Source of the DNA: Candidatus Brocadiia bacterium
Lineage (GTDB): Bacteria; Planctomycetota; PUPC01
Direction: 5' to 3'
Length of the DNA stretch: 64,000 nt
Assembly: GCA_030605345.1 (NCBI GenBank)
Contig: JAUWIN010000001.1
Coordinates: 5,253 to 69,252, forward strand
The position numbers and the translations under genes are program-made. Under the pieces are notes generated by a model. The model made no database searches. It was not told where the DNA came from and was given only the letters and a program-made list of their open reading frames with translations. Below, one piece after another: positions 1,339-42,727 of this stretch (its first letter is position 1; the number at the start of each line of letters is the position of its first letter).

Positions 1339-1592
1339 GCCGGCTGCGGGAACACCGAACTGCGGGGACAGGCCGCACCGAAACGCTGACAGCGAAGCCC
1401 CACCCATAACGCCATCCTTGGTTGTCAAGCCGGAGTACGCCAGCTTCACCACGGGCGCGAACATGCCTGGCTGGCGGCGTGGGGATTGACAACCGCTGAC
1501 CGAATTGCCAAAATAGAACTTCCTTGGCTGGCAGACGACCGCCAGTTGCGTCTCTAGCACCAGGCCGCAAGGCAATAGGGCTACCGGAGCAC

Positions 1593-2678
1593 ATGACAAG
1601 CTTCGCGCGCATGACCACTACATTGGCACTCAAACCGGTGGACCACGTCCCGGTAGTGGTGAGCCCGTGGGCGGCCACAACTGAGCGGTGGCGAAAGGAA
1701 GGCCATATCGGCGCCGAAGAGGATGTCGCCGAGCACTTCGGCCAGGACCTCCGCACCGGCGGATGGATCGACAGCACCGCCGATATGGATTTCGAGTCGG
1801 TCGTCATAGAGGAAACTGACGAAACTATACTCACGCTGGATGGTAATGGTGCGCAGCTCCGCCGGCACAAACTTCACGAGAGCACACCCGAGCACGTGGA
1901 CTTCGCGGTAAAGGAACGCATTGCCTGGGAGGAAAAGGTCAGGCCGCATCTTCTCGAGGTTGATCGACGCCGGATTCCGTTTGGGGCTTATCGCGAAGCG
2001 CGCCGCTCGGCCGCGGAAAAGAAACTCTTCTTCTGCTGGGAAGGGGGAGCGCCGTTTGAACAAATGTGCGCAGTCTGCGGCCACGAATATATGCTGATGG
2101 GCATGGCCACAGACCCCGATTGGGTCAGAGACATGGTGATCACATTTGCGCGCCTCAACGTTATGCACCAGGAAGTGCTCTTCGCCGAAGAGGGCCTGCC
2201 CAACGGGGTGTTCTACAACGAGGACATGGGATTCAAGTACAAGCCTTTTATGTCACCGCAGATGTACGAAGAAATCGTCCTTCCTGGCCACAAACTGCTG
2301 TTCGAAGCGGCGCACGCCGAGGGCCTGAAGGTGCTCGTGCATTCGTGCGGCTTTGTCGAGCCGCTGGTGCCGGGGCTAATTGAGGCCGGGATGGACTGTC
2401 TCCAGGCGATGGAAGTAAAAGCCGGCATGGACGTCCTCCGGCTGTTCGACCGTTTCGGCGAGCGGATTTCCTTTTTTGGAAACATCGACGTGCGCACTTT
2501 GGTCGCCAATGATCGTGCTGCGATTGAAAAAGAGCTGCTCACGAAAATTCCGCCGATCATCAATCACGGTGGCGGCTACATTCTGCATTCCGATCATTCC
2601 GAACCGCCTGAAGTCGACTACGAGACCATGCGCTTTTTCGTCGACCGCGGCCGCGAGATCGGAACGCCGAAACCCTAG
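1593..2678 (+). CDS. uroporphyrinogen decarboxylase-like (URO-D/MtaA-fold) family protein, paralog 1
   Basis: HSCGFVEPLVPGLIEAGMDCLQAMEVKAGMD, FFGNIDVRTL and a C-terminal HSDHS...EVDYETMRFFV are typical of the URO-D/methylcobamide:CoM methyltransferase-like fold. Internal start MTSFARM chosen. Confidence 0.7.
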   Translation: MTSFARMTTTLALKPVDHVPVVVSPWAATTERWRKEGHIGAEEDVAEHFGQDLRTGGWIDSTADMDFESVVIEETDETILTLDGNGAQLRRHKLHESTPEHVDFAVKERIAWEEKVRPHLLEVDRRRIPFGAYREARRSAAEKKLFFCWEGGAPFEQMCAVCGHEYMLMGMATDPDWVRDMVITFARLNVMHQEVLFAEEGLPNGVFYNEDMGFKYKPFMSPQMYEEIVLPGHKLLFEAAHAEGLKVLVHSCGFVEPLVPGLIEAGMDCLQAMEVKAGMDVLRLFDRFGERISFFGNIDVRTLVANDRAAIEKELLTKIPPIINHGGGYILHSDHSEPPEVDYETMRFFVDRGREIGTPKP

Positions 2679-2716: not shown

Positions 2717-3832
2717 TTGACCAAGAAACAGCGATTTCTGGCGGCGGTTCGAGGAGAAGTGCCCGACGTAGTGCCGGTGTCACCGCTTATCCACTGGCGG
2801 TTCGCCAACAAGGTGCTCGGCCGGTGGGATTGGAAGGCCGTATTCGAAGTGCATCAGATGATCGGATCGGTGCACCACCGCGGTCCAATCGGCGTGAGCG
2901 TGCATTCCTCCCTGCCCGACGGGTGTGGATCGGAGCAGCGTGAAATCAAACGCTCGCCCGATGGGCGCGTCGAGAGCGAATGGATCATCCGCACGCCCAA
3001 GCGGACCCTGCGCGGCAAGATTGAGAGGGGCCTGATCCCCCACGAACCCCTGGTGGGGAAGGCGGTGGAGTATCCCGTGAAGTCGGCGGAGTACTGGCGA
3101 GCCTACCTCGAGCTTCGGCAAGCCTGGCTGGAAAACATCACCGGCCCGGCGGTCGAACACTTCGACGAAGTGGTGAAAACGATGGGCGAGGAGGGCGTCC
3201 CGAGCGTAGCTCTCGGGCCAGCCCACAGCGCGCTGGGTGGCGTCCGGGGTATGGCTGAGTTCATCATGGATTTGCATGACTATCCGGACCTGATGGACGA
3301 ACTCTTCGAGGTCGAGCGGCAGATTACGGACAAGTGCATCGATGCGTTTCTGGCCGCGCCGACCGAAGTCGCGTGGCTCGACATCTGCTGGGCGACCGGA
3401 TCAAATCTGGGGCCGGAGCGGTTCAAACGATGGGCGCAGCCCGACGTGGAACGCGCCATGGACAGGGTGCGCGGGGTTCCGAACAAATACCTTGGCCTCT
3501 ACACCCTCGGCAGGATCCGCCACCTGTTGCCCATGTTTGCCGACGCAGGGGTGGATTTCGTCGAGACCTTCGAGCCGAACGAGGGCGACATTACCCTGGC
3601 GGAGGCCAAGAAGCTCTACGGGAAAAAGATGTGCTTGATGGGCAATTTCGACTGCACGATCCTCTCGTTCGGGACGGTAGAGGAGGCGCGGCAGGAAACG
3701 CGGCGCTGCCTGCGCGAGGGAATGGCCGACGGCGGATATGTGCTCGTGACCGGTGACGAAGTGCCCGCCGACACGAAAATGGACAGCCTGAAAGCAAGGG
3801 TTGAGACGGTCGAAGAGCACGGTCGGTACTAG
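2717..3832 (+). CDS. uroporphyrinogen decarboxylase-like (URO-D/MtaA-fold) family protein, paralog 2
   Basis: TTG start preceded by AAGGAGG (2704-2710). Motif ...KKMCLMGNFDCTIL...GYVLVTGDEVPADT; tandem with paralog 1 after a 38-nt gap. Confidence 0.7.
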   Translation: MTKKQRFLAAVRGEVPDVVPVSPLIHWRFANKVLGRWDWKAVFEVHQMIGSVHHRGPIGVSVHSSLPDGCGSEQREIKRSPDGRVESEWIIRTPKRTLRGKIERGLIPHEPLVGKAVEYPVKSAEYWRAYLELRQAWLENITGPAVEHFDEVVKTMGEEGVPSVALGPAHSALGGVRGMAEFIMDLHDYPDLMDELFEVERQITDKCIDAFLAAPTEVAWLDICWATGSNLGPERFKRWAQPDVERAMDRVRGVPNKYLGLYTLGRIRHLLPMFADAGVDFVETFEPNEGDITLAEAKKLYGKKMCLMGNFDCTILSFGTVEEARQETRRCLREGMADGGYVLVTGDEVPADTKMDSLKARVETVEEHGRY

Positions 3833-5122: not shown

Positions 5123-6559
5123 ATGGACAAAATGAGTAATCGCACAGACAGTGGTAGTGATTCGGCGGACCGGTTCGAGCCGACCGTGACATCACTTCAG
5201 AACAACTATAAGTGTCCGGAATGGTTTCGGGATGCCAAGTTCGGGATTTATCTGCACTGGGGGGTGTACTCGGTGGCGGAGCGGGCCGAATGGTACGGAA
5301 GGCAGATGTACATACCTGACGACCCGGTGTACGAGCACCACGTCAAGACATACGGGCACCCGTCCGAGTTCGGCTACAAAGATTTCATCCCCATGTGGAA
5401 AGCCGAAAAGTTCGACCCGGACCGCCTGGTGGGGCTTTTCAAGCAGGCCGGGGCCAGGTATTTCACCCCGTGTGCGGTGCATCACGACAACTTCGACCTA
5501 TGGAATTCCAAACATCATAGATGGAATTCGGTGAACATGGGACCGAAGAAGGACATCATCGGAATGTGGCGGGAGGCGACACTGAAGCACGGGCTTCGAT
5601 TTGGCGTCACCACGCATCTGGCCCGGTCTTACAGTTGGTTCAATGTCAATAAGGGCGCCGACACCGACGGGCCATACAAGGGCGTGCCCTACGACGGCAA
5701 TGATCCCGCCTATCGGGAGTTCTACTTCGAGCCGCACGACGACACCGACCACCGCCAGCCCATCAACCCGCCCGAACACTGGCGAAGGGAGTGGGCGCTT
5801 CGCATCAAAGACCTGATTGACCACTATCAGCCCGACCACCTCTACTTCGACGGCGGAATTCCGTTCCAGGGTGATGACGCGGCCAGGACAGGGCTCGAAG
5901 TCGTAGCGCACTATTACAACCAGAACGCGCGCCGGCACGGAGGTCGGCAGGAAGGCGTGATGTGCATCAAAAATTGCGCCGGGCACGGGCTTTACGTTGA
6001 CGGTATTACCACGCTCGACCTCGAGTGTGCCCGGGCCGACGACATCCAGCAGGCTCCGTGGCAGACGGATACCTCCATCGGCCCCTGGGGCTATTTGGCA
6101 GGGGCGAAGTATCGACCTGTCCGCGAGATTGTTCACGAACTCATAGACATCGTCAGCAAGAACGGGAACCTCCTTCTCAATGTCCCGCCAAAGGCAAACG
6201 GAACGCTGGACAAACAGACAGAACAAATCCTGTCAGACATCGGCCGGTGGATGGAAGTGAACGGAGAGGCGATCTATGGTACCAGGCCCTGGGGCAGGTA
6301 TGGCGAAGGGCAGCTGCGTTTCACCCGTAAGGACGACACGTTATATGTGATCGCACTCGAATGGCCCGCCGCCGGCGAAGGGCTGGCCGTGCCATCCCTA
6401 GGCGGACAGGCCGGAGCGTCGAAGGTTTCTGACGTGACCTTGCTGGGGTGCCCGGAACCTGTCGAATGGGAACAAAATGACAAAGAGTTGCGAATTGCTC
6501 CCCCCGCAGCGCCGCCGTGTGAACATGCATACTCGTTCCGGGTGAAGTTCGCCAGATAG
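5123..6559 (+). CDS. alpha-L-fucosidase (glycoside hydrolase family 29)
   Basis: N-terminal WFRDAKFGIYLHWGVYSV is the GH29 signature; 478 aa is the expected size. Confidence 0.8.
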   Translation: MDKMSNRTDSGSDSADRFEPTVTSLQNNYKCPEWFRDAKFGIYLHWGVYSVAERAEWYGRQMYIPDDPVYEHHVKTYGHPSEFGYKDFIPMWKAEKFDPDRLVGLFKQAGARYFTPCAVHHDNFDLWNSKHHRWNSVNMGPKKDIIGMWREATLKHGLRFGVTTHLARSYSWFNVNKGADTDGPYKGVPYDGNDPAYREFYFEPHDDTDHRQPINPPEHWRREWALRIKDLIDHYQPDHLYFDGGIPFQGDDAARTGLEVVAHYYNQNARRHGGRQEGVMCIKNCAGHGLYVDGITTLDLECARADDIQQAPWQTDTSIGPWGYLAGAKYRPVREIVHELIDIVSKNGNLLLNVPPKANGTLDKQTEQILSDIGRWMEVNGEAIYGTRPWGRYGEGQLRFTRKDDTLYVIALEWPAAGEGLAVPSLGGQAGASKVSDVTLLGCPEPVEWEQNDKELRIAPPAAPPCEHAYSFRVKFAR

Positions 6560-6711
6560 CAAACGGGAAACCCCATTCGCCCTGGCCGCACACACAGGTC
6601 CGGGCTGAAAACCGAATTGGTCTGTCCCTCAATTCCACGCCTCTGGGCTGCCCTGAACGCTGCCCATCGTGCCTCTCCTCCCCTTCTGCCACCCACCTGT
6701 TTGGGACCGGC

Positions 6712-6740
6712 TTGACAACCGGTTCGCTGCGAATATTATA
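6712..6740 (+). promoter_or_regulatory. sigma-70-like promoter (TTGACA-N16-TATTAT) upstream of the MinD/ferredoxin ATPase gene
   Basis: TTGACA at 6712-6717 and TATTAT at 6734-6739, ~30 nt before the AAGGA RBS and the ATG at 6771. Confidence 0.4.
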
Positions 6741-6770
6741 TTCCGACGGTCGAATATATAAGGAACAACC

Positions 6771-8594
6771 ATGAAGATTGCTATTTCGAGTGGAAAAGGC
6801 GGAACAGGCAAGACTTTCATTGCGACCAACCTGGCCGCACTGCTCGCCCAACGTGGCCGCGGCGTCGTATATCTGGATTGCGACGTCGAGGAACCGAACG
6901 GCCACCTGTTCCTCAAGCCCGAGACGGAACGCACCGAACGCATGACCGTGCCCGCACCGGTCAGCATCGACGCGGACAAATGTATCGGATGCGGCAGATG
7001 TGCCGAGGTATGTCACTACAACGCCATCGCGGTGGTCAAGGACAAGGTGCTGCTGTTTGACGAATTATGCCACGCCTGCGGGGCGTGCAGCATTGTCTGC
7101 CCGGAGGGCGCGATTATCGAGGGCGACAAGGAGATTGGTCAGATCAAGCATGGCAGGAGCGGCGATATCGGCTTTCATTACGGTCTGCTGAAGACGGCGG
7201 TGGGTGGAATGTCGCCGCGCCTCATCGCCGCGCTCAAGAAATATGCCGGCGACGACATTACCATCCTGGATTCACCGCCCGGCACGGCGTGTTCCGCCGT
7301 CGAAACCGTTGCAGGCGCCGATTTGTGCCTCCTGGTTGCCGATCCTACGCCGTTCGCGGTGCACGACTTGAAGCTTGCGGTGAACATGTGCAGGCAAATC
7401 GGGCAGGAGCCTGCAGTGGTGGTCAATCGGGCAGGTCTTGATGATGCGGAACTCAGCCAATATTGCAGGAGGGCACAACTCGAGGTCGTCGGCGAGATAC
7501 CGGACAGCCGTCAGATCGCCGAGGTCTATTCCGTCGGTGACCTGGTCGTGGAAAAGTTGCCCGAGATTCGACCCTATTTCGAGAAGATTATCGAGCGGGC
7601 GCAAGCCCTGGCGGCGGCCGAGCGACCGGTGAAGACAGATTTGATCGAACCCCTGTTCCGTCCGGGCGGCGAACGCTCGAGGGCGAGAAAACCGGACCCG
7701 ACGGCGAAGAGGCCGGAAGAAGTGGTCATAATAAGCGGCAAAGGCGGCACAGGCAAAACCTCGCTTGCTGCGTGTTTCGCACAACTTGCCGCCCCGGGGC
7801 TGGTGTCTGACTGTGACGTGGACGCCGCCGACCTTCATCTCGTGCTGGACCCACAGGTACAGGAAGAGGGCGACTTCGTCGGCGGTGTGACCGTGGAAAT
7901 CGATCAGGAAAAATGCACCCGCTGCGGGAAGTGCAGGGAATCCTGCCGCTTCGATGCCATTACGCGCACTGACGACGGCCGCTACCTTGTCGACCAAGTC
8001 GCCTGCGAGGGGTGTGGTGTGTGCGAACTGGTCTGCGAAGATGACGCTGTGAAGATAGAGGACGATATCAACGGCAAGTGGTTTGTATCCGAGACGCGGT
8101 TCGGCCCCATGTCCCCCGCCATCCTGGGGCACGCGGAGGAAAACTCGGGCCGCCTGGTGACGCTGGTGCGCGATTTGGCCGCCGACCTTACCACCGCGGC
8201 ACGACAACCCGGAAATGTCCTCATAGACGGCTTACCCGGAACCGGCTGCCCGGTGATTGCCTCCGTCAGCGGTGTCCGATACGCCGTCATCGTGACTGAA
8301 CCCACCGTGTCCGGCCTGCACGACCTGCGACGGATACTCGACCTCACCCGTCACTTCAGGGTCAGGGCGGGCGTGATTGTCAACAAGGCGGACTTGAACC
8401 AGGAAATGACGGAAAAGATACGCACGGAGACCGAAGGGGTCGGCGCCGACTTGCTTGGCGAGATCGCCTATGACGATAATTTCACTCAAGCGCAGATGAA
8501 GCACAAGACACTCCTGGAGTACGATGGCGGAGAAACCGGGCCGGTGATTGCGTCGATCTGGGAGAAAATCACCAAACTGCTGAAAAAACCGTGA
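6771..8594 (+). CDS. tandem-duplicated MinD/ParA-superfamily P-loop ATPase with embedded 4Fe-4S ferredoxin domains (COG1149-like), fused dimer
   Basis: Two repeats of Walker A (ISSGKGGTGKT and IISGKGGTGKT), each followed by CIGCGRC...C..C...CP or CTRCGKC...CEGCGVC ferredoxin motifs and then a MinD-like core. Confidence 0.7.
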   Translation: MKIAISSGKGGTGKTFIATNLAALLAQRGRGVVYLDCDVEEPNGHLFLKPETERTERMTVPAPVSIDADKCIGCGRCAEVCHYNAIAVVKDKVLLFDELCHACGACSIVCPEGAIIEGDKEIGQIKHGRSGDIGFHYGLLKTAVGGMSPRLIAALKKYAGDDITILDSPPGTACSAVETVAGADLCLLVADPTPFAVHDLKLAVNMCRQIGQEPAVVVNRAGLDDAELSQYCRRAQLEVVGEIPDSRQIAEVYSVGDLVVEKLPEIRPYFEKIIERAQALAAAERPVKTDLIEPLFRPGGERSRARKPDPTAKRPEEVVIISGKGGTGKTSLAACFAQLAAPGLVSDCDVDAADLHLVLDPQVQEEGDFVGGVTVEIDQEKCTRCGKCRESCRFDAITRTDDGRYLVDQVACEGCGVCELVCEDDAVKIEDDINGKWFVSETRFGPMSPAILGHAEENSGRLVTLVRDLAADLTTAARQPGNVLIDGLPGTGCPVIASVSGVRYAVIVTEPTVSGLHDLRRILDLTRHFRVRAGVIVNKADLNQEMTEKIRTETEGVGADLLGEIAYDDNFTQAQMKHKTLLEYDGGETGPVIASIWEKITKLLKKP

Positions 8595-8663
8595 ACCGCG
8601 GGTTATTAGGGGAGTGCGGGGGCAAGTCCGTCCCAGCTGCGGAGCTGAGGTTGGAGTTAAGAA

Positions 8664-9440
8664 ATGGAACTCAAGCCCATAGGTAAAGTCCGCTCACTTT
8701 CAGCGGGCCGATCGGTACTCGAAGTTGATGACGCGTATAAAAACGCCTTATATGGCATCCATCCGGGCGACCGGGTTCAGGTTCTCTATTGGATGCACGA
8801 ATTGCTCGCCGATGCCCGGCAGACCCTCAAGGTACATCCACGCGGCGACGGCAGCCGTCCCCTGCGCGGAGTTTTTGCTCTCCGAAGCCCAATGAGGCCC
8901 AACCCCATAGGCGTATCTGTGGTTAAGGTGGTGCAGGTTGGTGATGGTCAGGTCACCGTGACCGGGCTGGATGCCCTGGACGGTTCGCCCCTGGTGGATA
9001 TCAAAGGCACGACACGGCAGGCGCCGGCGCGGCTCACCACCATGTGGGGGAAGATTCATAACATACTGGTAGGTAAACTTGAAGACGAACTCGGCGAGGA
9101 GCATCTGCGAAACGCGCTTTATCAGGCATTGTGGGAAGCAGGAGGTGCTGCGGCTGAAGGGCATCTGGATGATGCCGCCGCCATCGGCCGACAGATCATG
9201 ACCATCGAAGAGTCCTTTGATATCAAGGGGCGAATTTGCGAAGACACTCCCCACTGCTTCGTGCGGGAGGTCACTTACTGCCCGTGGTCCTACTTCAGGC
9301 CTTTGAGTTGCATGCTTTTTGCCTGGTGGATGGAAGGATTTTGCTACGGCCTCAACCCGGGGTTTCGTTATCGCCTCGAGAAATTGGTTCCCCGGGGAGA
9401 CAACAGCTGCGTGTGGTCGGTTTCAAGGCTGCCTGATTAG
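8664..9440 (+). CDS. TsaA/TrmO (YaeB)-like SAM-dependent methyltransferase domain protein with an uncharacterised Cys/Trp-rich C-terminal domain
   Basis: The N-terminal 130 aa match the TsaA family (RPNPIGVSVVKVV...GLDALDGSPLVDIKG). The C-terminal ~110 aa (CPWSYFRPLSCMLFAWWMEGFCYGLNPGF) are not recognised. Confidence 0.6.
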   Translation: MELKPIGKVRSLSAGRSVLEVDDAYKNALYGIHPGDRVQVLYWMHELLADARQTLKVHPRGDGSRPLRGVFALRSPMRPNPIGVSVVKVVQVGDGQVTVTGLDALDGSPLVDIKGTTRQAPARLTTMWGKIHNILVGKLEDELGEEHLRNALYQALWEAGGAAAEGHLDDAAAIGRQIMTIEESFDIKGRICEDTPHCFVREVTYCPWSYFRPLSCMLFAWWMEGFCYGLNPGFRYRLEKLVPRGDNSCVWSVSRLPD

Positions 9441-9549
9441 CCGAGGACGGTGCAGGCAGCAGCGGGAGCTCCGGCCCTCGCCTTGCTGAATGTAGCGGGC
9501 CCTTGCACCGGTGACGATGAGCCGCCGCGCTTGCGCCGGCAGGGACAAT

Positions 9550-10707
9550 CTATCGCCGCGCGGCGCTGCGGGATGCTCTCAGAACTGTCGAGTAGATTCG
9601 CTCGACCTGTTCAGCCTGTGTGGCGGGGTCGAACCGTTCGAGGGCTGTGCGGCGTGCGGCGGCACCCATCCTGCGGCGGAGTTCTTCATCCCGGGCAAGG
9701 CGGACAACGGCTCCTGCCAGGTTGGCGGGGGAATCTTCTACCACCAGCCCAGTCTCTCCATCGGACACCAGTTCGGGCAACATGCCGCGCCTCGCGGCGA
9801 TGACGGGCGTGCCGAGGGCCATCGCCTCGCGCGCCGCGCGGCAAGACCCATCGGTGCCCGGAACCAGGAATACTTTGACATCGAAGGCGCGCAGCGCCGC
9901 GCCGTATTCGTCGCCACTGAGATATCCGGGGAACAGCACCACGTCATCGAGGCCCAGCCGGTGTGCTGGTTTGACCGCTACAGCTTGTTTGTGGGTCCCG
10001 CGGCCGACGATTACGAGTTTGAGACGCGGCAGTTGCTCCCGCGCTATGGCGGCTGCGTCGAGCAGCACGTCGAACCTCCGCCGCTTCTGGATGCGCGCGG
10101 CGACCCCGACCACGAAGTCGGCGGCGGCGAGGCCGAGTTTCGCCCGCCCGTCGGCAAGGTCACGCGCCGGGTCGAACCTGGCCACGTCAATTGCCCCGTG
10201 GACCAGATGTGTAGTTCCGGCGTCAAGGTCGAAGCGCCTCACGTCCCCTTCCAGCGCCGCCTGCGACAGTTCTATCAGCGCGTCCGCCCTTTTCGGGAAC
10301 AGGAAGCGGTTGCGAAGGTTCAGGTGCATCGGGACTGCGTCGTGGTTGGTGCGGACGATGGCGGGGCGCCGGTTGCAGCGTCGCGCCGCCAGCGCCGCGG
10401 TCAGATGGTCGTTGACGAGGTTGCAGTGGACGATTTCAAAGCCGCGCCGGTCGATGAAGTCGGCGAGGCGCAGGGCGTCGCGCAGGAGCGGGAACGGGCT
10501 GAAGTGCTTGGGCAAGGCGAGACTGGTCGTCGTGTCGAGCCCCTGGCCGGTGGCAAGGGAATCAACATAGCCCTGCCCCTCACGACGCGGGTGTGGATGA
10601 GCCAGGGTGACCTCGTGGCCGCGCCTCATCAGTTCGGCGGCCAGCCGGACCGCTGGCTCGGCGGGGCCGGTCACCTTGTAATTGCTGAACAAGTGGCGCA
10701 GTTTCAT
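9550..10707 (-). CDS. glycosyltransferase family 4 (GT-B, WaaG/RfaG-like)
   Basis: C-terminal EAMALGTPVIAARRGMLPELVSDGETGLVVE matches the GT4 E-X7-E region. Part of the LPS-core locus. Confidence 0.75.
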   Translation of the reverse strand: MKLRHLFSNYKVTGPAEPAVRLAAELMRRGHEVTLAHPHPRREGQGYVDSLATGQGLDTTTSLALPKHFSPFPLLRDALRLADFIDRRGFEIVHCNLVNDHLTAALAARRCNRRPAIVRTNHDAVPMHLNLRNRFLFPKRADALIELSQAALEGDVRRFDLDAGTTHLVHGAIDVARFDPARDLADGRAKLGLAAADFVVGVAARIQKRRRFDVLLDAAAIAREQLPRLKLVIVGRGTHKQAVAVKPAHRLGLDDVVLFPGYLSGDEYGAALRAFDVKVFLVPGTDGSCRAAREAMALGTPVIAARRGMLPELVSDGETGLVVEDSPANLAGAVVRLARDEELRRRMGAAARRTALERFDPATQAEQVERIYSTVLRASRSAARR

Positions 10708-12344
10708 ACGGCTTTACCCTCTCGCCTGCGGTGTTCGAGAATCTCCGCTCCGCCGCGTTGGAGCCAGCGCCGGTGGCGGGCGCGGCTTATGGCGTCGATT
10801 TCGGCCAGAAGTTCAGGCTGGCGGAACTCAGGCCGGCCGCGGGAATATTCTCGGAAAAACCGCAGCCGGTCGGCTCTGGACGGCTTGACATAGACATCGT
10901 CGATCTGGCCGAGGTTCTTAATCCTGAAGTTGAGGGATGGCGCCCGCCCGGTGCGTATGTCGCCGACATCGATGAGGTAGAATTCCCATCCGTCCTGCAT
11001 TTCGCGCACCAAGACGTTCTTTCCGGAGAGGTCGCGGTGACGGAGTTTGTGTGAGTGAATCCGCCTGACAAAGTTAGCGGCCTGGGAGATGAACCGGCGC
11101 CATTTGTGGAGCGCGTCTGTACCGACCGGTCGGGCGGTGTCGGCCACATAGTCGTTGAAGCGGCTCGCGCCGGTGACGTAGTGGGTGATGAAGAACGAGC
11201 GGCGGCCGGCCTCGGCCATGGCGCACGCCTCCGGCGTGCGTATCCCGCGCACGCGGCAGGCATGCGAGCCGACCCAAGCGAAGCTGGCGCGCGAGCCGCG
11301 GAAGAAATCGCCGATGCACTGAAACAGCCCCGGTCGGATAAATTCCTTCACGCACAGAGGAGGCCACCTCTCGTCGCTCAAGTTAACGACGGTTATCCGT
11401 GCTCGCCGGTTGCTCATCAGGACTTCCGTGCCGCGTTGGTCTGCGGTTTTTGCCCGGTGTTGCTCGACGGCCTCGGCCACGAGCTCAGCTGGGAAATCCA
11501 CCCGGCGGTATACCTTCATCCCACTGACGCGCTCACGCCGGAAACCTGTCGACTTTTTCACGCAGCGTTTTGTTCGGCTTGCGTATCTGCGCTCTCGGCT
11601 GCGTATGACGCCGCGACCGAGGGCAACTGCGAAGTTCTCTATTTCTTCCCCGGATGCATCCTGGCCGAGGTATGCGCGGGCGAACGCCAGGTGGTCTTTC
11701 GGGCCCAGGCCGTCGCGCGGTGACGAGAGAAGTTGCGCCACGTTTGCAATGCGCTTCCGCTTAGACACGAGCCTGCCAACGGTTACGCGGTGGAGATCGA
11801 TAAGAACAAGCTCATCGCCTGCGACGAGGATGTTGCCGGCGTGTAGGTCGCGGTGGAGCACGTTGGCGTCGTGCATTCTCCTGACGAGACGGGCGACATC
11901 GCTGAGCAATTCCGGTCTGTGGCCGAGCGCTTCGCGCAGCGGGACCCCGTTCTCGACCGCCTCAGACACTAGCACCGCCTCTGCGAACACGCCGGCGACC
12001 CGCCGCTCGCCCAGCGCAATGACGCGGGCCACGCGCAACCCACGGCCGGCCATCGCGCGCGAGGCGTCCCATTCAACCAACGCCCGTGACGGCAGCAGGA
12101 GATACTTTAACCGTTCCTTCAGCGAGTGCACCTTGTGGTGCTTGATAAAGACCGTCCGCCCGGCAAGTTCAAGCCGGTACACCGTGCGGGTGAGCGTGCG
12201 CTTGATCAGCACTGCTCCGGCTGTTCCCAGCGCGTTCAGGCTCGGAGCCAGTACCTCGCGCAGGGGTTTCTCGAACCACTTTTCGACGGCCCACCGCATT
12301 CCGCCAAGGTTGAAATGCGCGAGTTGTCCGCCTGAATCCTTCAC
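10704..12344 (-). CDS. tandem (two-domain) lipopolysaccharide core kinase, Kdo/WaaP/RfaP family
   Basis: Two kinase catalytic loops, HRDLHAGNILV...LIDLHRV and HRDLSGKNVLV...LIDVGDI, in one 546-aa ORF. Start overlaps the downstream GT4 (ATGA). Confidence 0.65.
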   Translation of the reverse strand: MKDSGGQLAHFNLGGMRWAVEKWFEKPLREVLAPSLNALGTAGAVLIKRTLTRTVYRLELAGRTVFIKHHKVHSLKERLKYLLLPSRALVEWDASRAMAGRGLRVARVIALGERRVAGVFAEAVLVSEAVENGVPLREALGHRPELLSDVARLVRRMHDANVLHRDLHAGNILVAGDELVLIDLHRVTVGRLVSKRKRIANVAQLLSSPRDGLGPKDHLAFARAYLGQDASGEEIENFAVALGRGVIRSRERRYASRTKRCVKKSTGFRRERVSGMKVYRRVDFPAELVAEAVEQHRAKTADQRGTEVLMSNRRARITVVNLSDERWPPLCVKEFIRPGLFQCIGDFFRGSRASFAWVGSHACRVRGIRTPEACAMAEAGRRSFFITHYVTGASRFNDYVADTARPVGTDALHKWRRFISQAANFVRRIHSHKLRHRDLSGKNVLVREMQDGWEFYLIDVGDIRTGRAPSLNFRIKNLGQIDDVYVKPSRADRLRFFREYSRGRPEFRQPELLAEIDAISRARHRRWLQRGGAEILEHRRREGKAV

Positions 12345-21405: not shown

Positions 21406-22206
21406 ATGAAAACGATTGATTTCCATACGCATGCATTTCCGGACTTCCTGGCTGAGCAGGCGATCGGCGCCATTGAAGCGAGCTCGTCGCTCCAACGCTC
21501 CCACGCCGATGGCACGGTGAGCGGCCTGCTCCGCTCGATGGACACCGCCGGTATCGAGGTGTCCGTCATCGCCTCCATTGCCACTGCTGAGAAGCAGTTC
21601 GTCAGTATCCTGAACTGGTCACGCGAAATCGCGTCCGACCGAATCATCCCCTTCCCTTCCATATATCCGTTTTCCGCAGACGCCGTCCAGCAGGCGGAGC
21701 AGGTGGCCGACGCCGGCTTCAGGGGCGTCAAACTGCATCCCTTATACCAGGATTTCCAGCCTCTGAACGAACGGATGATGCCGATTTATGGCGCTATCGC
21801 CGACCGGGACCTCATCCTGCTGTTTCACTCTGGCGACGACCTCGCCTTCCTCGGCGACCACCGCTGCATGCCGTCCACCATGCTCCAGGTCCAGAAGCGA
21901 GTCCCTGGGCTGAAAATGGTGCTTTCGCACCTCGGCGGATTCTCGCAATACACCGACTTCGAGCGGCACTGCCTCGGGTCGGAAGCGTACATCGATGTCT
22001 CGTTCGGCATACCAGACCAGCCCAGCGAGATGTTCACCCACATCGTCCGCGACCACACCGCCGGCCGGGTGATGTTCGGAACCGACTCGCCCTGGAACGA
22101 CCAGAAAACCGAGATAGAAAAACTGAAGCGGGTGATTGACAAGCCCGACCTGCTGGAGGATATTCTGTGGAACAACGCGGCGGAACTCCTCGGAATCGGA
22201 CACTGA
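21406..22206 (+). CDS. amidohydrolase-2 family metal-dependent hydrolase (TIM barrel)
   Basis: IDFHTHAF (HxH), LLFHSG, LSHLGG and FGTDSPW are metal-ligand motifs of the amidohydrolase_2 family. Confidence 0.65.
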   Translation: MKTIDFHTHAFPDFLAEQAIGAIEASSSLQRSHADGTVSGLLRSMDTAGIEVSVIASIATAEKQFVSILNWSREIASDRIIPFPSIYPFSADAVQQAEQVADAGFRGVKLHPLYQDFQPLNERMMPIYGAIADRDLILLFHSGDDLAFLGDHRCMPSTMLQVQKRVPGLKMVLSHLGGFSQYTDFERHCLGSEAYIDVSFGIPDQPSEMFTHIVRDHTAGRVMFGTDSPWNDQKTEIEKLKRVIDKPDLLEDILWNNAAELLGIGH

Positions 22207-22207
22207 T

Positions 22208-23218
22208 ATGACATCAAAAGAAATCGTGAGGCGGACGCTCGAGTTCAGCCGGCCCGAGCGGCTGGCACGGACGTTGCCTGAGCCGTGGGGGAATGACTTG
22301 TGCAGCGTGGGCGCCGATACGGACGACCTCGCCGGCGGCTGGAAGAAGGTAGGTGATGAGCGTTGGGAACGCACCGACGAGTGGGGCAATACCTGGGCAC
22401 GGGTCGAAGACCACTCCATGGGTGAAGTCGCAAAGGGCGCACTGGAGAACATCAACGCAGTCGAAGACCTCCCCATGCCGCCACTGAGCGACCCGGAACG
22501 CTACGAAAATGCGGCGAAAACCATCGCCGAAAACAACGAGCACTTCATCGCCGGCGGCCTGCCCGGCTTCACCTTCAGCATGGCTCGTAAAATCCGCCGG
22601 CTCGACCAATACATGATGGACCTCCACCTCCACCGCGACAAGATCGAAATCCTCCACGACCGCATCGACGAAGTTCTGCTCGCGATGGTCGAAAACTACG
22701 ACCGCATCGGATGTGATGCAATCATAACCGCCGAAGACTGGGGCACGCAACTTGGGCTGATGATACACCCGGACCTGTGGCGCGAGATATTCAAGCCGCG
22801 GTTCAAAAGAATTTGCGACGCAGCCAGGAAACACGGAATGAAAGTCCTGCTCCACTCTTGCGGCAGGATTACAGACGTCATCCCTGACATGATAGAGGTC
22901 GGCATCGACGCGCTACAATTCGACCAGCAGCAGGTGCACGGCATCGATAACCTGGCGAGATACGCCGGTCGGGTAACTTACTGGTGCCCGGTGGACATCC
23001 AGGCAGCGCTACAGAGCGGTGACGAGGCGGTGATCCGCGGATGGGCGCGCACGCTGGTCGAGAAGCTGTGGTGCGGCGGGAAGGGCGGCTTCATCGCTGA
23101 CTTCTACTCAGATGGGGTTTCCATCGGGGTCCCGCCCGAATGGCAGGCCTGGGCCTGCAACGAGTTCGTCAAGGCAGACGCGGAAAAAGGACGAGTGGTG
23201 CAGGAAAACGGGGGCTGA
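22208..23218 (+). CDS. uroporphyrinogen decarboxylase-like (URO-D/MtaA-fold) family protein, paralog 3
   Basis: KVLLHSCGRITDVIPDMIEVGIDALQFDQ matches the conserved core of paralogs 1 and 2. Start is 1 nt after the amidohydrolase stop. Confidence 0.7.
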   Translation: MTSKEIVRRTLEFSRPERLARTLPEPWGNDLCSVGADTDDLAGGWKKVGDERWERTDEWGNTWARVEDHSMGEVAKGALENINAVEDLPMPPLSDPERYENAAKTIAENNEHFIAGGLPGFTFSMARKIRRLDQYMMDLHLHRDKIEILHDRIDEVLLAMVENYDRIGCDAIITAEDWGTQLGLMIHPDLWREIFKPRFKRICDAARKHGMKVLLHSCGRITDVIPDMIEVGIDALQFDQQQVHGIDNLARYAGRVTYWCPVDIQAALQSGDEAVIRGWARTLVEKLWCGGKGGFIADFYSDGVSIGVPPEWQAWACNEFVKADAEKGRVVQENGG

Positions 23219-39270: not shown

Positions 39271-39346
39271 TGGTGGAGGCAACGGGACTCGAACCCGTGA
39301 CCTCATGGCTGCCAGCCATACGCTCTCCCAACTGAGCTATGCCCCC
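39271..39346 (-). tRNA. tRNA-Ala (anticodon GGC)
   Basis: Reverse complement GGGGGCATAGCTCAGTTGGGAGAGCGTATGGCTGGCAGCCATGAGGTCACGGGTTCGAGTCCCGTTGCCTCCACCA folds as a cloverleaf. Anticodon loop CTGGCAG with the G3:U70 alanine identity pair; CCA encoded. Confidence 0.85.
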
Positions 39347-42652: not shown

Positions 42653-42727
42653 GGGTAGGTAGCTCAGGGGTAGAGCACGGGACTGAAAATCCCGGTGTCG
42701 GCGGTTCAATTCCGCCCCTACCCACCA
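42653..42727 (+). tRNA. tRNA-Phe (anticodon GAA)
   Basis: GGGTAGGTAGCTCAGGGGTAGAGCACGGGACTGAAAATCCCGGTGTCGGCGGTTCAATTCCGCCCCTACCCACCA has a 7-bp acceptor stem, anticodon loop CTGAAAA and T-loop TTCAATT; CCA encoded. Confidence 0.85.

What the first reader, a model, noticed from the sequence alone, without database searches (positions are those of the whole stretch)
6771..9440. Internally duplicated MinD-type ATPase with two embedded 4Fe-4S ferredoxin domains, paired with a TsaA/TrmO-like protein carrying an unknown Cys/Trp-rich C-terminal domain
The 607-aa ORF is two complete copies of a [Walker-A P-loop + 2x(CxxCxxCxxxCP) ferredoxin insert + MinD core] unit, i.e. a covalently fused dimer of the poorly characterised COG1149-type ATPase. 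It has its own consensus sigma-70 promoter (TTGACA-N16-TATTAT at 6712-6740). A TsaA-family (YaeB fold) methyltransferase-like gene follows 69 nt downstream; its C-terminal 110 aa (CPWSYFRPLSCMLFAWWMEGFCYGLNPGF) match nothing I recognise. An Fe-S, ATP-driven protein next to an atypical methyltransferase fold could be an uncharacterised redox-activated modification system, possibly linked to the URO-D-like genes that flank the region.
Basis: partly seen in the sequence, partly recalled or inferred. Interest (0 to 1): 0.55.

Follow-up and report, generated by a model that had tools for sequence, protein, structure and literature searches.

The report
Fused Fe-S ATPase beside TsaA–V4R protein
Two real, neighbouring genes of unknown function, a common double Fe-S ATPase of anaerobes and a rarer SAM-binding protein fused to a ligand-binding domain, both turn up repeatedly in gene clusters for redox and vitamin-B12 cofactor maintenance, but they are not an obligate pair.

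Summary
ORF 6771-8594 (607 aa) is a tandem fusion of two ferredoxin-inserted MinD/Mrp-like P-loop ATPase units (halves 31% identical, E=1e-35). ORF 8664-9440 (258 aa), 69 nt downstream, is a TsaA/YaeB beta-barrel plus a ~140-aa C-terminal domain.

The interpretation needs correcting in three ways.

- The fused ATPase is not unusual. At least 120 cluster representatives of 603-642 aa share 58-76% identity across several candidate phyla. Its usual home is an ORP-type cluster (Desulfovibrio Orp3/Orp4 class), next to UbiE-type methyltransferase and RACo genes.
- The "unknown" C-terminal domain is a V4R/Bet3-fold domain. It is a divergent relative of Pfam ATC_hydrolase (PF14196), with one invariant His and three invariant Cys.
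- The TsaA domain is of the short AF0241 type. It keeps 3 of 4 AdoMet ligands but lacks the Gln loop and the DPRxxY domain that bacterial TrmO needs, so the database label "TrmO" is probably wrong.

The two genes are adjacent or share a cluster in 4 of 12 distinct contexts. More often the TsaA-V4R gene sits beside a RACo corrinoid activase, together with DUF1638, methyltransferases, thioredoxins and a radical SAM enzyme.

The best reading is that these are two components of an uncharacterised anaerobic redox/cofactor-maintenance gene set. No biochemical function has been shown. Interest is moderate.

The parts
6712..6739 (+). Sigma-70-like promoter match TTGACA-N16-TATTAT upstream of the ATPase gene
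   Evidence: Matches 11 of 12 consensus positions. It sits in the 211-nt gap after the fucosidase gene. This is a consensus match only; function is not shown, and the host phylum is unknown.
6771..8594 (+). 607-aa tandem-fused ferredoxin-inserted MinD/Mrp-like ATPase (Orp3/Orp4 class; COG1149 type)
   Evidence: ORF and Pfam domains. The halves are 31% identical, E=1e-35. There are at least 120 orthologous cluster representatives at 58-76% identity, and the conserved residues are listed.
6771..7670 (+). N-half (A-type unit): Walker A at aa 8-15, 2x[4Fe-4S] insert (C71/74/77/81 and C100/103/106/110), and extra invariant C37 and C174
   Evidence: It is 48% identical to the separate gene L023 511-1380 but only 34% to the window's own C-half. 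The invariant columns come from alignment A5.
7710..8591 (+). C-half (B-type unit): Walker A at aa 323-330, 2x[4Fe-4S] insert (C382/385/388/392 and C412/415/418/422), and extra invariant C348 and C493
   Evidence: It is 46-49% identical to the separate genes L023 3465-4403, L012 1296-2210 and L008 2-769, against about 29% for the N-half.
8664..9017 (+). TsaA/YaeB beta-barrel (AdoMet-binding) domain of the AF0241 type, lacking the Gln (PRQ) loop
   Evidence: PF01980 scores 84 bits. PDB sequence matches are 3okx (E=3e-18) and 2nv4 (E=2e-17). Foldseek finds 2nv4_A at E=1.3e-9 with 39% identity. R74, D103 and K114 are at least 90% conserved.
9018..9440 (+). V4R/Bet3-fold, ATC_hydrolase-like domain with invariant H132, C206, C216 and C249 and a WWMEGF motif
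   Evidence: The profile search returned 143 representatives. Remote members pass PF14196. The model has pLDDT 95.3. Foldseek finds Bet3, MopR, PoxR and DmpR at probability 1.0.

Best explanation
The two genes are a small, separately promoted outpost of a larger, uncharacterised gene set found in anaerobes.

**Gene 1: the ATPase.** It is a single-chain version of the Orp3/Orp4-type heterodimer, a SIMIBI P-loop ATPase.
- Each half carries an inserted 2x[4Fe-4S] ferredoxin domain.
- Each half also has two further invariant Cys. One sits 7 residues after the Walker-B Asp, in switch II.
- Inferred mechanism: nucleotide-dependent closing of the two halves gates the passage of low-potential electrons (or of an Fe-S or metal cluster) from the ferredoxin inserts, through an interface Cys4 site, to a client protein.

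**Gene 2: the TsaA-V4R protein.** It is one such client or co-worker.
- It is a homodimeric AdoMet-binding TsaA beta-barrel fused to a V4R-fold pocket with a Cys3(His) site.
- It most likely binds and methylates (or otherwise processes) a small hydrophobic molecule, cofactor or metal-thiolate, rather than tRNA.

**Shown:** the domain identities, the fold, the conserved residues, the recurrent gene neighbourhoods, and the fusion/fission links.

**Inferred:** electron or cluster transfer, AdoMet use, the substrate class, and any physical interaction between the two proteins.
For: **ATPase**
- Both Walker A motifs, both Walker-B Asp, all 16 ferredoxin Cys, and C37/C174/C348/C493 are invariant across 29 orthologs at 58-76% identity.
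- The two halves correspond to two distinct paralog lineages that are separate genes in L023. This matches the description of Orp3/Orp4 as paralogs, each with two [4Fe-4S] motifs, that co-purify (PMC6345978).
- Orthologs lie in ORP-type clusters with a PAS-sigma54 activator, Nitro_FeMo-Co proteins, an Mrp-like ATPase and DUF5320. A UbiE-type methyltransferase and RACo lie directly downstream.

**TsaA-V4R protein**
- About 37 full-length clusters share the architecture.
- The two domains are also found split by a stop codon or as separate genes, which is Rosetta-stone evidence that they work together.
- Three of the four AdoMet ligands are conserved.
- The V4R fold is predicted with high confidence.

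**Link between the two genes**
- They are adjacent in the window and in L008, and share one same-strand cluster in L012 and in L023.
- That is 4 of 12 distinct contexts, against a rough background of 0.4-3% (binomial p of 1e-7 to 3e-4).
- Seven of 12 contexts contain an ATP-dependent Fe-S protein (MinD-Fd or RACo) close to the TsaA-V4R gene.
- The 69-nt spacer has no terminator-like site or unusual structure, consistent with co-transcription.
Against: - No experiment exists for either protein family beyond the Desulfovibrio ORP work. The function proposed there (cell division, metallocluster handling) is itself unresolved.
- The pair is not obligate.
  - L035 and L036 (fused-ATPase orthologs) have no TsaA-V4R gene within 7 kb.
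  - L037, L038 and L040 (TsaA-V4R genes) have no MinD-Fd within 10 kb.
  - Only the window's own contig is shared between the two hit lists.
- The window contains none of the other neighbourhood genes.
- The TsaA domain lacks the Gln loop whose mutation strongly reduces TrmO activity, so AdoMet binding is not assured.
- The interface Cys4 site is inferred from motif positions only. No structure of the ATPase was predicted.
- I made no direct sequence comparison with DVU2103/DVU2104.
Confidence: 0.45

Rival explanations
1. The system performs reductive (re)activation of a corrinoid. The TsaA-V4R protein holds a corrinoid or corrinoid protein in its V4R pocket and supplies a methyl group from AdoMet. 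An ATP-driven Fe-S reductase provides the low-potential electron: RACo in most genomes, the fused MinD-Fd here. This would be functionally analogous to the AdoMet-dependent reactivation domain of MetH. The window's URO-D/MtaA-like methyltransferases would be the enzymes it serves.
For: - RACo/AcsV-like genes lie directly beside, or in the same cluster as, the TsaA-V4R gene in L001, L012, L014, L023 and L038.
- DUF1638 is present in L007, L014, L023 and L038.
- RamA-like proteins and DUF1638 are genetically tied to B12 reactivation (PMC5764234).
- The V4R/H-NOX superfamily includes tetrapyrrole binders (H-NOX hits; family relationship stated in PMC5847659).
- MtaA/CmuA-like URO-D genes are in the window, and one sits beside the TsaA fusion in L034.
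Against: - No B12-binding protein was seen in any of the inspected neighbourhoods.
- The URO-D genes in the window are separated from the pair by unrelated genes, and the family is multi-copy.
- No cobalamin riboswitch was found.
- RACo-type activation is not known to need AdoMet.
- Corrinoid binding by this domain is pure inference.
Confidence: 0.2
2. The two genes act independently and are neighbours only because both belong to a redox- or metal-stress regulon. The ATPase serves the ORP metallocluster complex. The TsaA-V4R protein is a small-molecule or metalloid methyltransferase, or a ligand sensor, used in detoxification.
For: - The neighbourhoods are rich in stress and redox genes: thioredoxins, a CoA-disulfide-reductase-like flavoprotein, OsmC, HSP20, Cpn10, DnaJ-domain proteins, NUDIX, MBL, DtxR-type repressors and an ArsP_2 permease.
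- orp genes respond to redox potential (PMC8359166).
- Most ATPase orthologs have no TsaA-V4R partner.
Against: - In the window the two genes form a tight two-gene unit with their own promoter-like site, away from every other member of the set. A purely regulon-level link does not easily explain this.
- Adjacency recurs in L008 at only 45% protein identity.
Confidence: 0.25
3. The 258-aa protein is a genuine TrmO tRNA m6t6A methyltransferase, as NCBI annotation names its relatives. The V4R-like domain would replace the usual tRNA-binding C-terminal domain, and the ATPase would be unrelated.
For: TIGR00104 scores 98.9 bits, just above its cutoff of 93.25. Arg, Asp and Lys AdoMet ligands are conserved. 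Sources name the relatives TrmO/TsaA.
Against: - Only model positions 28-130 of 143 are matched.
- The Gln loop is deleted throughout the family.
- The DPRxxY domain required in E. coli is absent. Short YaeB homologs that lack it occur in archaea, where m6t6A has never been detected (PMC4132733).
- The V4R fold is a small-ligand-binding fold, not an RNA-binding one.
- The gene neighbourhoods are all redox or cofactor related, with no translation genes.
Confidence: 0.07

Closest known systems
Orp3/Orp4 (DVU2103/DVU2104) of the Desulfovibrio vulgaris orange-protein (ORP) complex; the COG1149-type 'MinD superfamily P-loop ATPase with inserted ferredoxin domain'
   Same: - P-loop ATPase of about 31 kDa per unit with two [4Fe-4S] ferredoxin motifs.
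- Two diverged paralogs that act together.
- Orthologs of the window protein lie beside a PAS-sigma54 activator, Nitro_FeMo-Co proteins and an Mrp-like ATPase, as in the orp operons.
   Different: - Here the two paralogs are fused into one 607-aa chain.
- The gene has a sigma-70-like promoter match rather than a sigma54/OrpR context.
- No ORP-cluster gene is present in the 64-kb window.
- I did not compare the sequence directly with DVU2103/DVU2104.
NifH/BchL-type ATP-dependent Fe-S reductases and Mrp/NBP35 Fe-S carriers (SIMIBI ATPases)
   Same: - Deviant Walker A with the signature Lys.
- Dimeric (here pseudo-dimeric) architecture.
- A Cys 7 residues after the Walker-B Asp. This is the position of NifH cluster ligand Cys132 (recalled from memory).
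- A 'PPGT' switch II like Mrp/NBP35.
   Different: - The clusters sit in inserted ferredoxin domains.
- All curated models (minD_arch, MrpORP, NifH) score far below their cutoffs or match only the first ~50 residues.
- A bridging cluster has not been demonstrated.
AF0241 / RPA0152 short YaeB (TsaA) proteins and TrmO
   Same: The same beta-barrel AdoMet-binding fold. The Arg82, Asp111 and Lys122 equivalents and the RPNPIG motif are conserved.
   Different: - The loop carrying Gln22 is missing.
- There is no DPRxxY domain.
- There is a family-specific VHPRGD motif.
- The domain is fused to a V4R-like domain.
V4R / ATC_hydrolase (PF14196) / Bet3 superfamily, e.g. the MopR, PoxR and DmpR phenol-sensor domains and MetOD1
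   Same: The fold matches (TM 0.6-0.68, probability 1.0). It has the cluster of three conserved Cys noted for V4R and ATC hydrolase domains (PMC5847659).
   Different: - The window domain does not itself reach any Pfam threshold.
- In a from-memory comparison with the V4R consensus motif, one of the usual Cys positions appears to be Val/Ile; this was not tested here.
- It is attached to a TsaA domain rather than to an AAA+ regulator or a receiver domain.
RACo / RamA / AcsV ATP-dependent reductive activases of corrinoid proteins
   Same: An ATP-using Fe-S protein found next to the same TsaA-V4R, UbiE-methyltransferase and YkoF genes.
   Different: RACo is an ASKHA-fold ATPase with a [2Fe-2S] domain and is unrelated in sequence and fold. 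In L012, L023 and L035 both types are present, so they are not simple replacements for one another.

Membership tests
Orp3/Orp4-type (COG1149) ferredoxin-inserted P-loop ATPase | Deviant Walker A (KGGxGK[ST]) with signature Lys, plus a Walker-B Asp | tested here: met
   GKGGTGKT at aa 8-15 and 323-330, and D167 and D486, are invariant in 29 orthologs.
Orp3/Orp4-type (COG1149) ferredoxin-inserted P-loop ATPase | Two [4Fe-4S] ferredoxin motifs inserted in each ATPase unit | tested here: met
   There are four CxxCxxCxxxC motifs. Pfam Fer4, Fer4_21 and related models hit both halves, and all 16 Cys are invariant.
Orp3/Orp4-type (COG1149) ferredoxin-inserted P-loop ATPase | Two diverged paralogous units that work as a pair | tested here: met
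   The halves are 31% identical. Each is closer (46-49%) to a different separate gene in L023, L012 and L008 than to the other half. Physical pairing follows from the fusion itself.
Orp3/Orp4-type (COG1149) ferredoxin-inserted P-loop ATPase | Genomic association with Nitro_FeMo-Co (ORP/NifX-like), Mrp-like and sigma54 OrpR-like genes | tested here: inconclusive
   Met for orthologs L035 (74% identity) and L036 (59%). Not met in the window itself.
Orp3/Orp4-type (COG1149) ferredoxin-inserted P-loop ATPase | Sequence orthology to DVU2103/DVU2104 | not tested
The link rests on the published description and on gene context.
MinD (cell-division site-determining ATPase) | Score above the curated MinD model cutoff | tested here: not met
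   minD_arch scores 104.5 bits against a cutoff of 201.75, and minD_bact 63.9 against 212.9.
NifH/BchL-type ATP-dependent reductase | A subunit-bridging [4Fe-4S] cluster held by two Cys per subunit, one of them in switch II | tested here: inconclusive
   Two extra invariant Cys per half are present, and C174 and C493 lie at Walker-B Asp +7. No structural model of the ATPase was made. Pfam Fer4_NifH matches only aa 2-49.
TrmO (tRNA m6t6A37 methyltransferase) | TsaA/YaeB beta-barrel domain | tested here: met
   PF01980 scores 84 bits. Foldseek finds 2nv4, 3okx and 7bu1.
TrmO (tRNA m6t6A37 methyltransferase) | Four AdoMet-contacting residues (Gln25, Arg92, Asp125, Lys136 in E. coli numbering) | tested here: not met
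   The Arg, Asp and Lys equivalents (R74, D103, K114) are conserved. The loop carrying the Gln is deleted in the whole family.
TrmO (tRNA m6t6A37 methyltransferase) | C-terminal domain with the DPRxxY motif, required for activity in E. coli | tested here: not met
   The C-terminal region is a V4R-fold domain instead. The requirement is described in PMC4132733.
TrmO (tRNA m6t6A37 methyltransferase) | Score above the TIGR00104 cutoff | tested here: met
   It scores 98.9 against 93.25, but only model positions 28-130 of 143 are aligned.
ATC_hydrolase (PF14196) / V4R superfamily | Pfam PF14196 gathering score | tested here: inconclusive
   The window domain has no hit. Close relatives P0007 and P0004 score 20.5 and 17.9 bits against a cutoff of 28.1. 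Remote relatives reached with the family profile pass at 39.6, 31.9 and 29.5 bits.
ATC_hydrolase (PF14196) / V4R superfamily | Bet3/V4R fold | tested here: met
   The model has pLDDT 95.3 and pTM 0.88. Foldseek probability is 1.0 to Bet3, MopR, PoxR and DmpR, with TMq 0.56-0.68.
ATC_hydrolase (PF14196) / V4R superfamily | Cluster of three conserved Cys | tested here: met
   C206, C216 and C249 are invariant in 38 sequences, together with H132. Whether they are close together in space could not be measured because model coordinates are not exposed.
ATC_hydrolase (PF14196) / V4R superfamily | Thiazoline-ring (C-S) hydrolase activity | not testable with these tools
   This needs an enzyme assay.
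Anti-phage defence systems (PADLOC) | A significant full-length match to a defence protein model | tested here: not met
   Only local Walker-A matches were found (best 27.8 bits, aa 2-52). The TsaA-V4R protein had no hit.

The most novel reading that the evidence does not exclude
The TsaA-V4R protein is a new kind of AdoMet-dependent cofactor-repair factor. Its V4R pocket would bind a corrinoid (or another tetrapyrrole or metal cofactor). Its TsaA barrel would donate a methyl group while an ATP-driven Fe-S reductase injects a low-potential electron; that reductase would be RACo or, in this window, the fused Orp3-Orp4 ATPase. This would give the enigmatic ORP-type ATPases their first defined biochemical role, as NifH-like reductive activases. 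It would also give the many non-tRNA YaeB paralogs of anaerobes and methanogens a function.
Probability: 0.15. Interest if true: 0.8.

Novelty: new variant of a known kind. Interest (0 to 1): 0.42.

Why it matters
The ferredoxin-inserted MinD-like ATPases (ORP class) are widespread and very strongly conserved in anaerobes, yet they have no assigned biochemical activity. Short YaeB/TsaA proteins that cannot be TrmO are also unexplained.

This work shows three things:
- a TsaA-V4R fusion family exists;
- it is routinely mislabelled as TrmO;
- it shares a recurring neighbourhood with RACo, DUF1638, AdoMet methyltransferases, thioredoxin-system genes and the ORP-type ATPases.

Together these give a concrete, testable entry point: a two-gene unit that could be expressed and assayed together. 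They also flag an annotation error. This is a hypothesis-generating result, not a demonstrated new system.

Tried and rejected
- **Direct Pfam and PDB sequence searches with the C-terminal domain** gave nothing. The domain was resolved only through an exhaustive profile search and structure prediction.
- **Exact look-up of the window proteins** in the contig index failed. Relatives of the TsaA-V4R gene are from Planctomycetota and Kiritimatiellae; relatives of the ATPase are from Hydrogenedentes, Omnitrophota and others.
- **A 16-sequence alignment was too diverse** for the genome scan, so I used the 4-sequence one instead.
- **The afdb50 fold library was unavailable**.
- **Pyrrolysine or stop-codon readthrough** for the in-frame TAG in L001 was rejected as the simplest reading, because TAG ends 5 of 13 other genes there.
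- **A riboswitch or structured RNA** upstream of or between the genes was not found.
- **A sigma54 promoter** upstream: reading 6540-6770 by eye found no GG-N10-GC match.
- **Defence-system membership** was rejected.
- **The 42-44-aa 'MinD-Fd remnants'** in L007 and L016 cover only the generic Walker-A region. I do not count L016. L007 is supported only by synteny (DUF1638, fragment, DnaJ, as in L023).
- **Literature searches** found nothing for COG1149, for TsaA/YaeB together with V4R, or for the MinD-ferredoxin / Nitro_FeMo-Co / DUF5320 neighbourhood.


Full report

Yes. The ORF table lists 6771-8594 (+, 607 aa) and 8664-9440 (+, 258 aa), leaving a 69-nt spacer.

Pfam finds CbiA/MinD/ParA-type P-loop domains and 4Fe-4S ferredoxin domains in both halves of the first protein. 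It finds a TrmO_N domain at residues 15-115 of the second. BLASTP of the N-half against the C-half gives 31% identity over 252 residues, E=1e-35, so the internal duplication is genuine and old.

All four ferredoxin motifs are CxxCxxCxxxC, but only one is followed by Pro. The promoter-like site TTGACA-N16-TATTAT lies at 6712-6739 and matches 11 of 12 positions. It is 31 nt upstream of the ATG, which has an AAGGA 7-11 nt before it.

The spacer between the genes has no terminator-like site and no unusual fold (z = -0.67). The two genes are therefore probably one transcription unit, though this is not shown.

Downstream genes are on the opposite strand and concern glycosyl transfer and LPS. Upstream genes on the same strand are a DJ-1/PfpI protein, two URO-D/MtaA-like proteins, a DegT-type aminotransferase and an alpha-L-fucosidase.

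**2. The ATPase**

The fused 600-aa form is not a rarity. The best 120 cluster representatives are all 562-642 aa, cover about 100% of the query (one of them 89%), and are 58-76% identical. Where sources give names, they are 'MinD superfamily P-loop ATPase', 'P-loop NTPase' or 'cobyrinic acid a,c-diamide synthase'. The named organisms are Hydrogenedentes, Omnitrophota, Latescibacterota, Aminicenantes and others.

An alignment of 29 of these proteins shows the following residues to be invariant:
- both GKGGTGKT Walker A motifs;
- both Walker-B Asp (D167, D486);
- all 16 ferredoxin Cys;
- two more Cys per half: C37/C348 in a 'DCD' motif just after the Walker A strand, and C174/C493 in 'D-x-P-G-T-x-C'.

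The last pair lies exactly seven residues after the Walker-B Asp. From memory, that is the spacing of NifH Asp125 and its cluster ligand Cys132. The 'PPGT' motif resembles switch II of Mrp/NBP35. I therefore infer, without having tested it, a nucleotide-sensitive Cys4 site at the interface of the two halves.

The halves are not just copies of each other. In metagenome locus L023 two separate genes match the N-half (48%) and the C-half (49%). Each matches the opposite half at only 30-34%. The single units in L012 and L008 are of the C-half type.

This fits the published description of Desulfovibrio Orp3 and Orp4: two paralogs, each with two [4Fe-4S] motifs, that co-purify with each other and with Orp8 and receive clusters from MrpORP (PMC6345978). 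Their operons are transcribed only at low redox potential, through the Fe-S-containing sigma54 activator OrpR (PMC8359166).

I could inspect the surroundings of two fused orthologs, and both support this link:
- L035 (74% identical): methyltransferase, PAS-sigma54 activator, two Nitro_FeMo-Co proteins, the ATPase, UbiE-type methyltransferase, RACo, Nitro_FeMo-Co.
- L036 (Omnitrophica, 59%): Nitro_FeMo-Co, ferredoxin, DUF5320, disulfide oxidoreductase, Mrp-like ATPase, MBL, two radical SAM enzymes, the ATPase, OsmC, UbiE-type methyltransferase.

Curated MinD, MrpORP and NifH models all score far below their cutoffs or match only the P-loop region. No solved structure covers the whole unit.

**3. 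The TsaA-like protein**

*N-terminal domain.* Its best sequence matches are the short YaeB proteins RPA0152 (E=3e-18) and AF0241 (E=2e-17). The predicted structure matches AF0241, which was solved with AdoMet bound (Foldseek E=1.3e-9).

The TrmO paper names Gln22, Arg82, Asp111 and Lys122 of AF0241 as AdoMet ligands. It shows that bacterial TrmO also needs a C-terminal DPRxxY domain. It also notes that archaeal YaeB proteins lack that domain, and that m6t6A has never been found in archaea (PMC4132733).

In the 48-sequence family alignment the Arg, Asp and Lys equivalents (R74, D103, K114) and the RPNPIG motif are at least 90% conserved. The roughly 13-residue loop carrying the Gln is missing in every member, and a family-specific VHPRGD motif appears. 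TIGR00104 is passed only narrowly (98.9 against 93.25) and only over model positions 28-130 of 143.

So this is a TsaA-fold protein that probably still binds AdoMet, but it fails two defining tests for TrmO.

*C-terminal domain.* It has no direct Pfam hit, and the word-indexed search found only three relatives. An exhaustive profile search found 143 representatives. They fall into two groups:
- a close family that includes the same fusion (257-269 aa) and standalone ~150-aa proteins;
- remote single-domain (~160 aa) or tandem (~370 aa) proteins that pass Pfam PF14196 (ATC_hydrolase) at 29.5-39.6 bits. Close members score just below the 28.1-bit cutoff.

AlphaFold models the domain at pLDDT 95.3 and pTM 0.88. 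Foldseek places it in the Bet3/V4R fold, with TRAPP Bet3 and the MopR, PoxR and DmpR phenol-sensor domains at probability 1.0 and TM 0.56-0.68, and with H-NOX more distant.

This agrees with a published statement that ATC hydrolase, V4R and H-NOX domains are related and share three conserved Cys (PMC5847659). Here H132, C206, C216, C249 and the WWMEGF motif are invariant or nearly invariant across 38 sequences.

*The fusion.* It recurs in about 37 clusters at 45-59% identity. Where sources give a name it is TrmO/TsaA in most cases, and L-fuculose-phosphate aldolase for three JGI entries. In one lineage (L001-L004, L013, L033) the same reading frame is cut by a TAG in the linker, at the position where the window protein has Gln. 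TAG is an ordinary stop codon in that lineage, so this looks like a gene fission. In L009 and L019 the two domains are separate genes. Fusion, fission and separate-gene forms together are good evidence that the two domains act together.

**4. Are the two genes linked?**

I collected 12 distinct contexts of TsaA-V4R genes.

MinD-Fd and TsaA-V4R occur together in four of them:
- the window, where they are adjacent;
- L008, with one PNPOx-like gene between them, at only 45-46% protein identity to the window pair;
- L012, in one same-strand cluster: FkbM methyltransferase, ferredoxin, MinD-Fd, UbiE methyltransferase, YkoF, RACo, MBL, NUDIX, PNPOx, radical SAM, disulfide oxidoreductase, TsaA-V4R;
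- L023: DUF1638, MinD-Fd A, DnaJ-domain protein, thioredoxin, MinD-Fd B, UbiE methyltransferase, YkoF, RACo, radical SAM, an enolase-family protein, TsaA-V4R, MBL.

Against a generous background of 0.4-3% for a 20-kb window, 4 of 12 is unlikely by chance (p of 1e-7 to 3e-4).

The pairing is nevertheless not obligate:
- L037, L038 and L040 have no MinD-Fd within 10 kb.
- L035 and L036 have no TsaA-V4R gene.
- Among 120 ATPase clusters and 37 TsaA-V4R clusters, only the window's own 83,427-nt contig appears in both lists.

The more frequent partner is RACo, found in L001, L012, L014, L023 and L038. It is often accompanied by DUF1638, UbiE-type methyltransferases, a YkoF-like protein, a CoA-disulfide-reductase-like flavoprotein, thioredoxins and DtxR-type repressors. 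Standalone V4R-like genes nearly always follow a radical SAM enzyme that has a winged-helix C-terminus.

RamA/RACo-like proteins and DUF1638 have genetic evidence for a role in B12 reactivation (PMC5764234).

The window itself contains none of these other genes.

**5. The URO-D link**

The window's three URO-D-like proteins score best against MtaA/CmuA-type methylcobamide methyltransferase models, but far below the cutoffs. Two of them lie 3-5 kb upstream of the pair, behind unrelated genes. One further locus (L034) has a divergent URO-D-like ORF directly upstream of a TsaA-V4R gene (24% identity, E=9e-11). This is suggestive but weak.

**6. What it most likely is**

The evidence supports a two-gene unit drawn from a wider, uncharacterised anaerobic gene set concerned with low-potential redox chemistry and cofactor maintenance. 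The unit combines a single-chain Orp3/Orp4-type ATPase, which would gate electron or cluster transfer with ATP, and a TsaA-V4R protein, which would bind AdoMet and a small hydrophobic or metal ligand.

The more specific idea, AdoMet-dependent reductive methylation of a corrinoid, is attractive. It rests on three points: the RACo/DUF1638 association, the tetrapyrrole-binding precedents in the V4R/H-NOX superfamily, and the MtaA-like genes. However, no B12-binding protein and no cobalamin riboswitch was seen.

A true TrmO function is unlikely. Independent roles within a stress regulon cannot be excluded.

**7. Novelty and score**

Both domain families are known. The fused ATPase is common and already catalogued, though it has no assigned function.

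The TsaA-V4R architecture and its neighbourhood do not appear in the searchable literature, and databases label these proteins as TrmO. This is a new variant of known kinds, with moderate interest. It offers a tractable handle on two poorly understood protein classes, but there is no evidence yet of a new mechanism.

Noticed in passing
L001 5215-5217 (also L002, L003, L004, L013, L033): The TsaA-V4R reading frame is interrupted by an in-frame TAG in the inter-domain linker, at the position of Gln (CAG) in the window protein. The interruption is identical in contigs from several samples. TAG also ends 5 of 13 other genes in that locus, so a gene fission is the simplest reading. The downstream piece would then start after the conserved Trp of the first helix.
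   Followed up: partly
L005 1-1111; L009 9365-10417; L011 4413-5547; L020 1506-2549; L026 9304-10396: Standalone V4R/ATC_hydrolase-like genes almost always directly follow a ~350-aa radical SAM enzyme with a winged-helix C-terminus. That enzyme has no curated family match above cutoff. The same radical SAM gene also occurs in the L012, L015, L016 and L023 clusters.
   Followed up: partly
Proteins P0246, P0217, P0226, P0235: The short TsaA (TrmO_N) domain is also found fused to YkoF plus cupin, MOSC, class II aldolase and dUTPase domains. This suggests that many TsaA-fold proteins act on small molecules rather than tRNA. A YkoF-like gene is also a frequent neighbour of the TsaA-V4R gene.
   Followed up: no
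window 1524-2678, 2717-3832, 22136-23218: There are three URO-D/MtaA-like paralogs within 64 kb, all far below curated cutoffs. Two sit next to sugar-related genes (DegT aminotransferase, alpha-L-fucosidase). Their substrates are unknown.
   Followed up: partly
L036 12800-15048: Four consecutive HSP20-family genes lie a few kb downstream of the fused ATPase ortholog in an Omnitrophica MAG, after OsmC, a methyltransferase, a diadenylate cyclase and a PEP-utilising enzyme. A PEP-utilising enzyme also follows the TsaA-V4R locus in L001.
   Followed up: no
L007 4868-5002: A 44-aa ORF is 59% identical to the first 44 residues of the window ATPase. It sits between DUF1638 and a DnaJ-domain gene, exactly where L023 has a full-length MinD-Fd A gene. 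This is probably a deletion remnant.
   Followed up: partly
window 9511-10893 (+): A 460-aa ORF overlaps the GT4 glycosyltransferase gene on the opposite strand (9550-10707). It is a spurious ORF of the kind high G+C sequence produces. Many similar ones appear throughout the ORF list.
   Followed up: no
window 39274-39346 (-) and 42653-42724 (+): Two tRNA genes are the only Rfam matches in the window.
   Followed up: no
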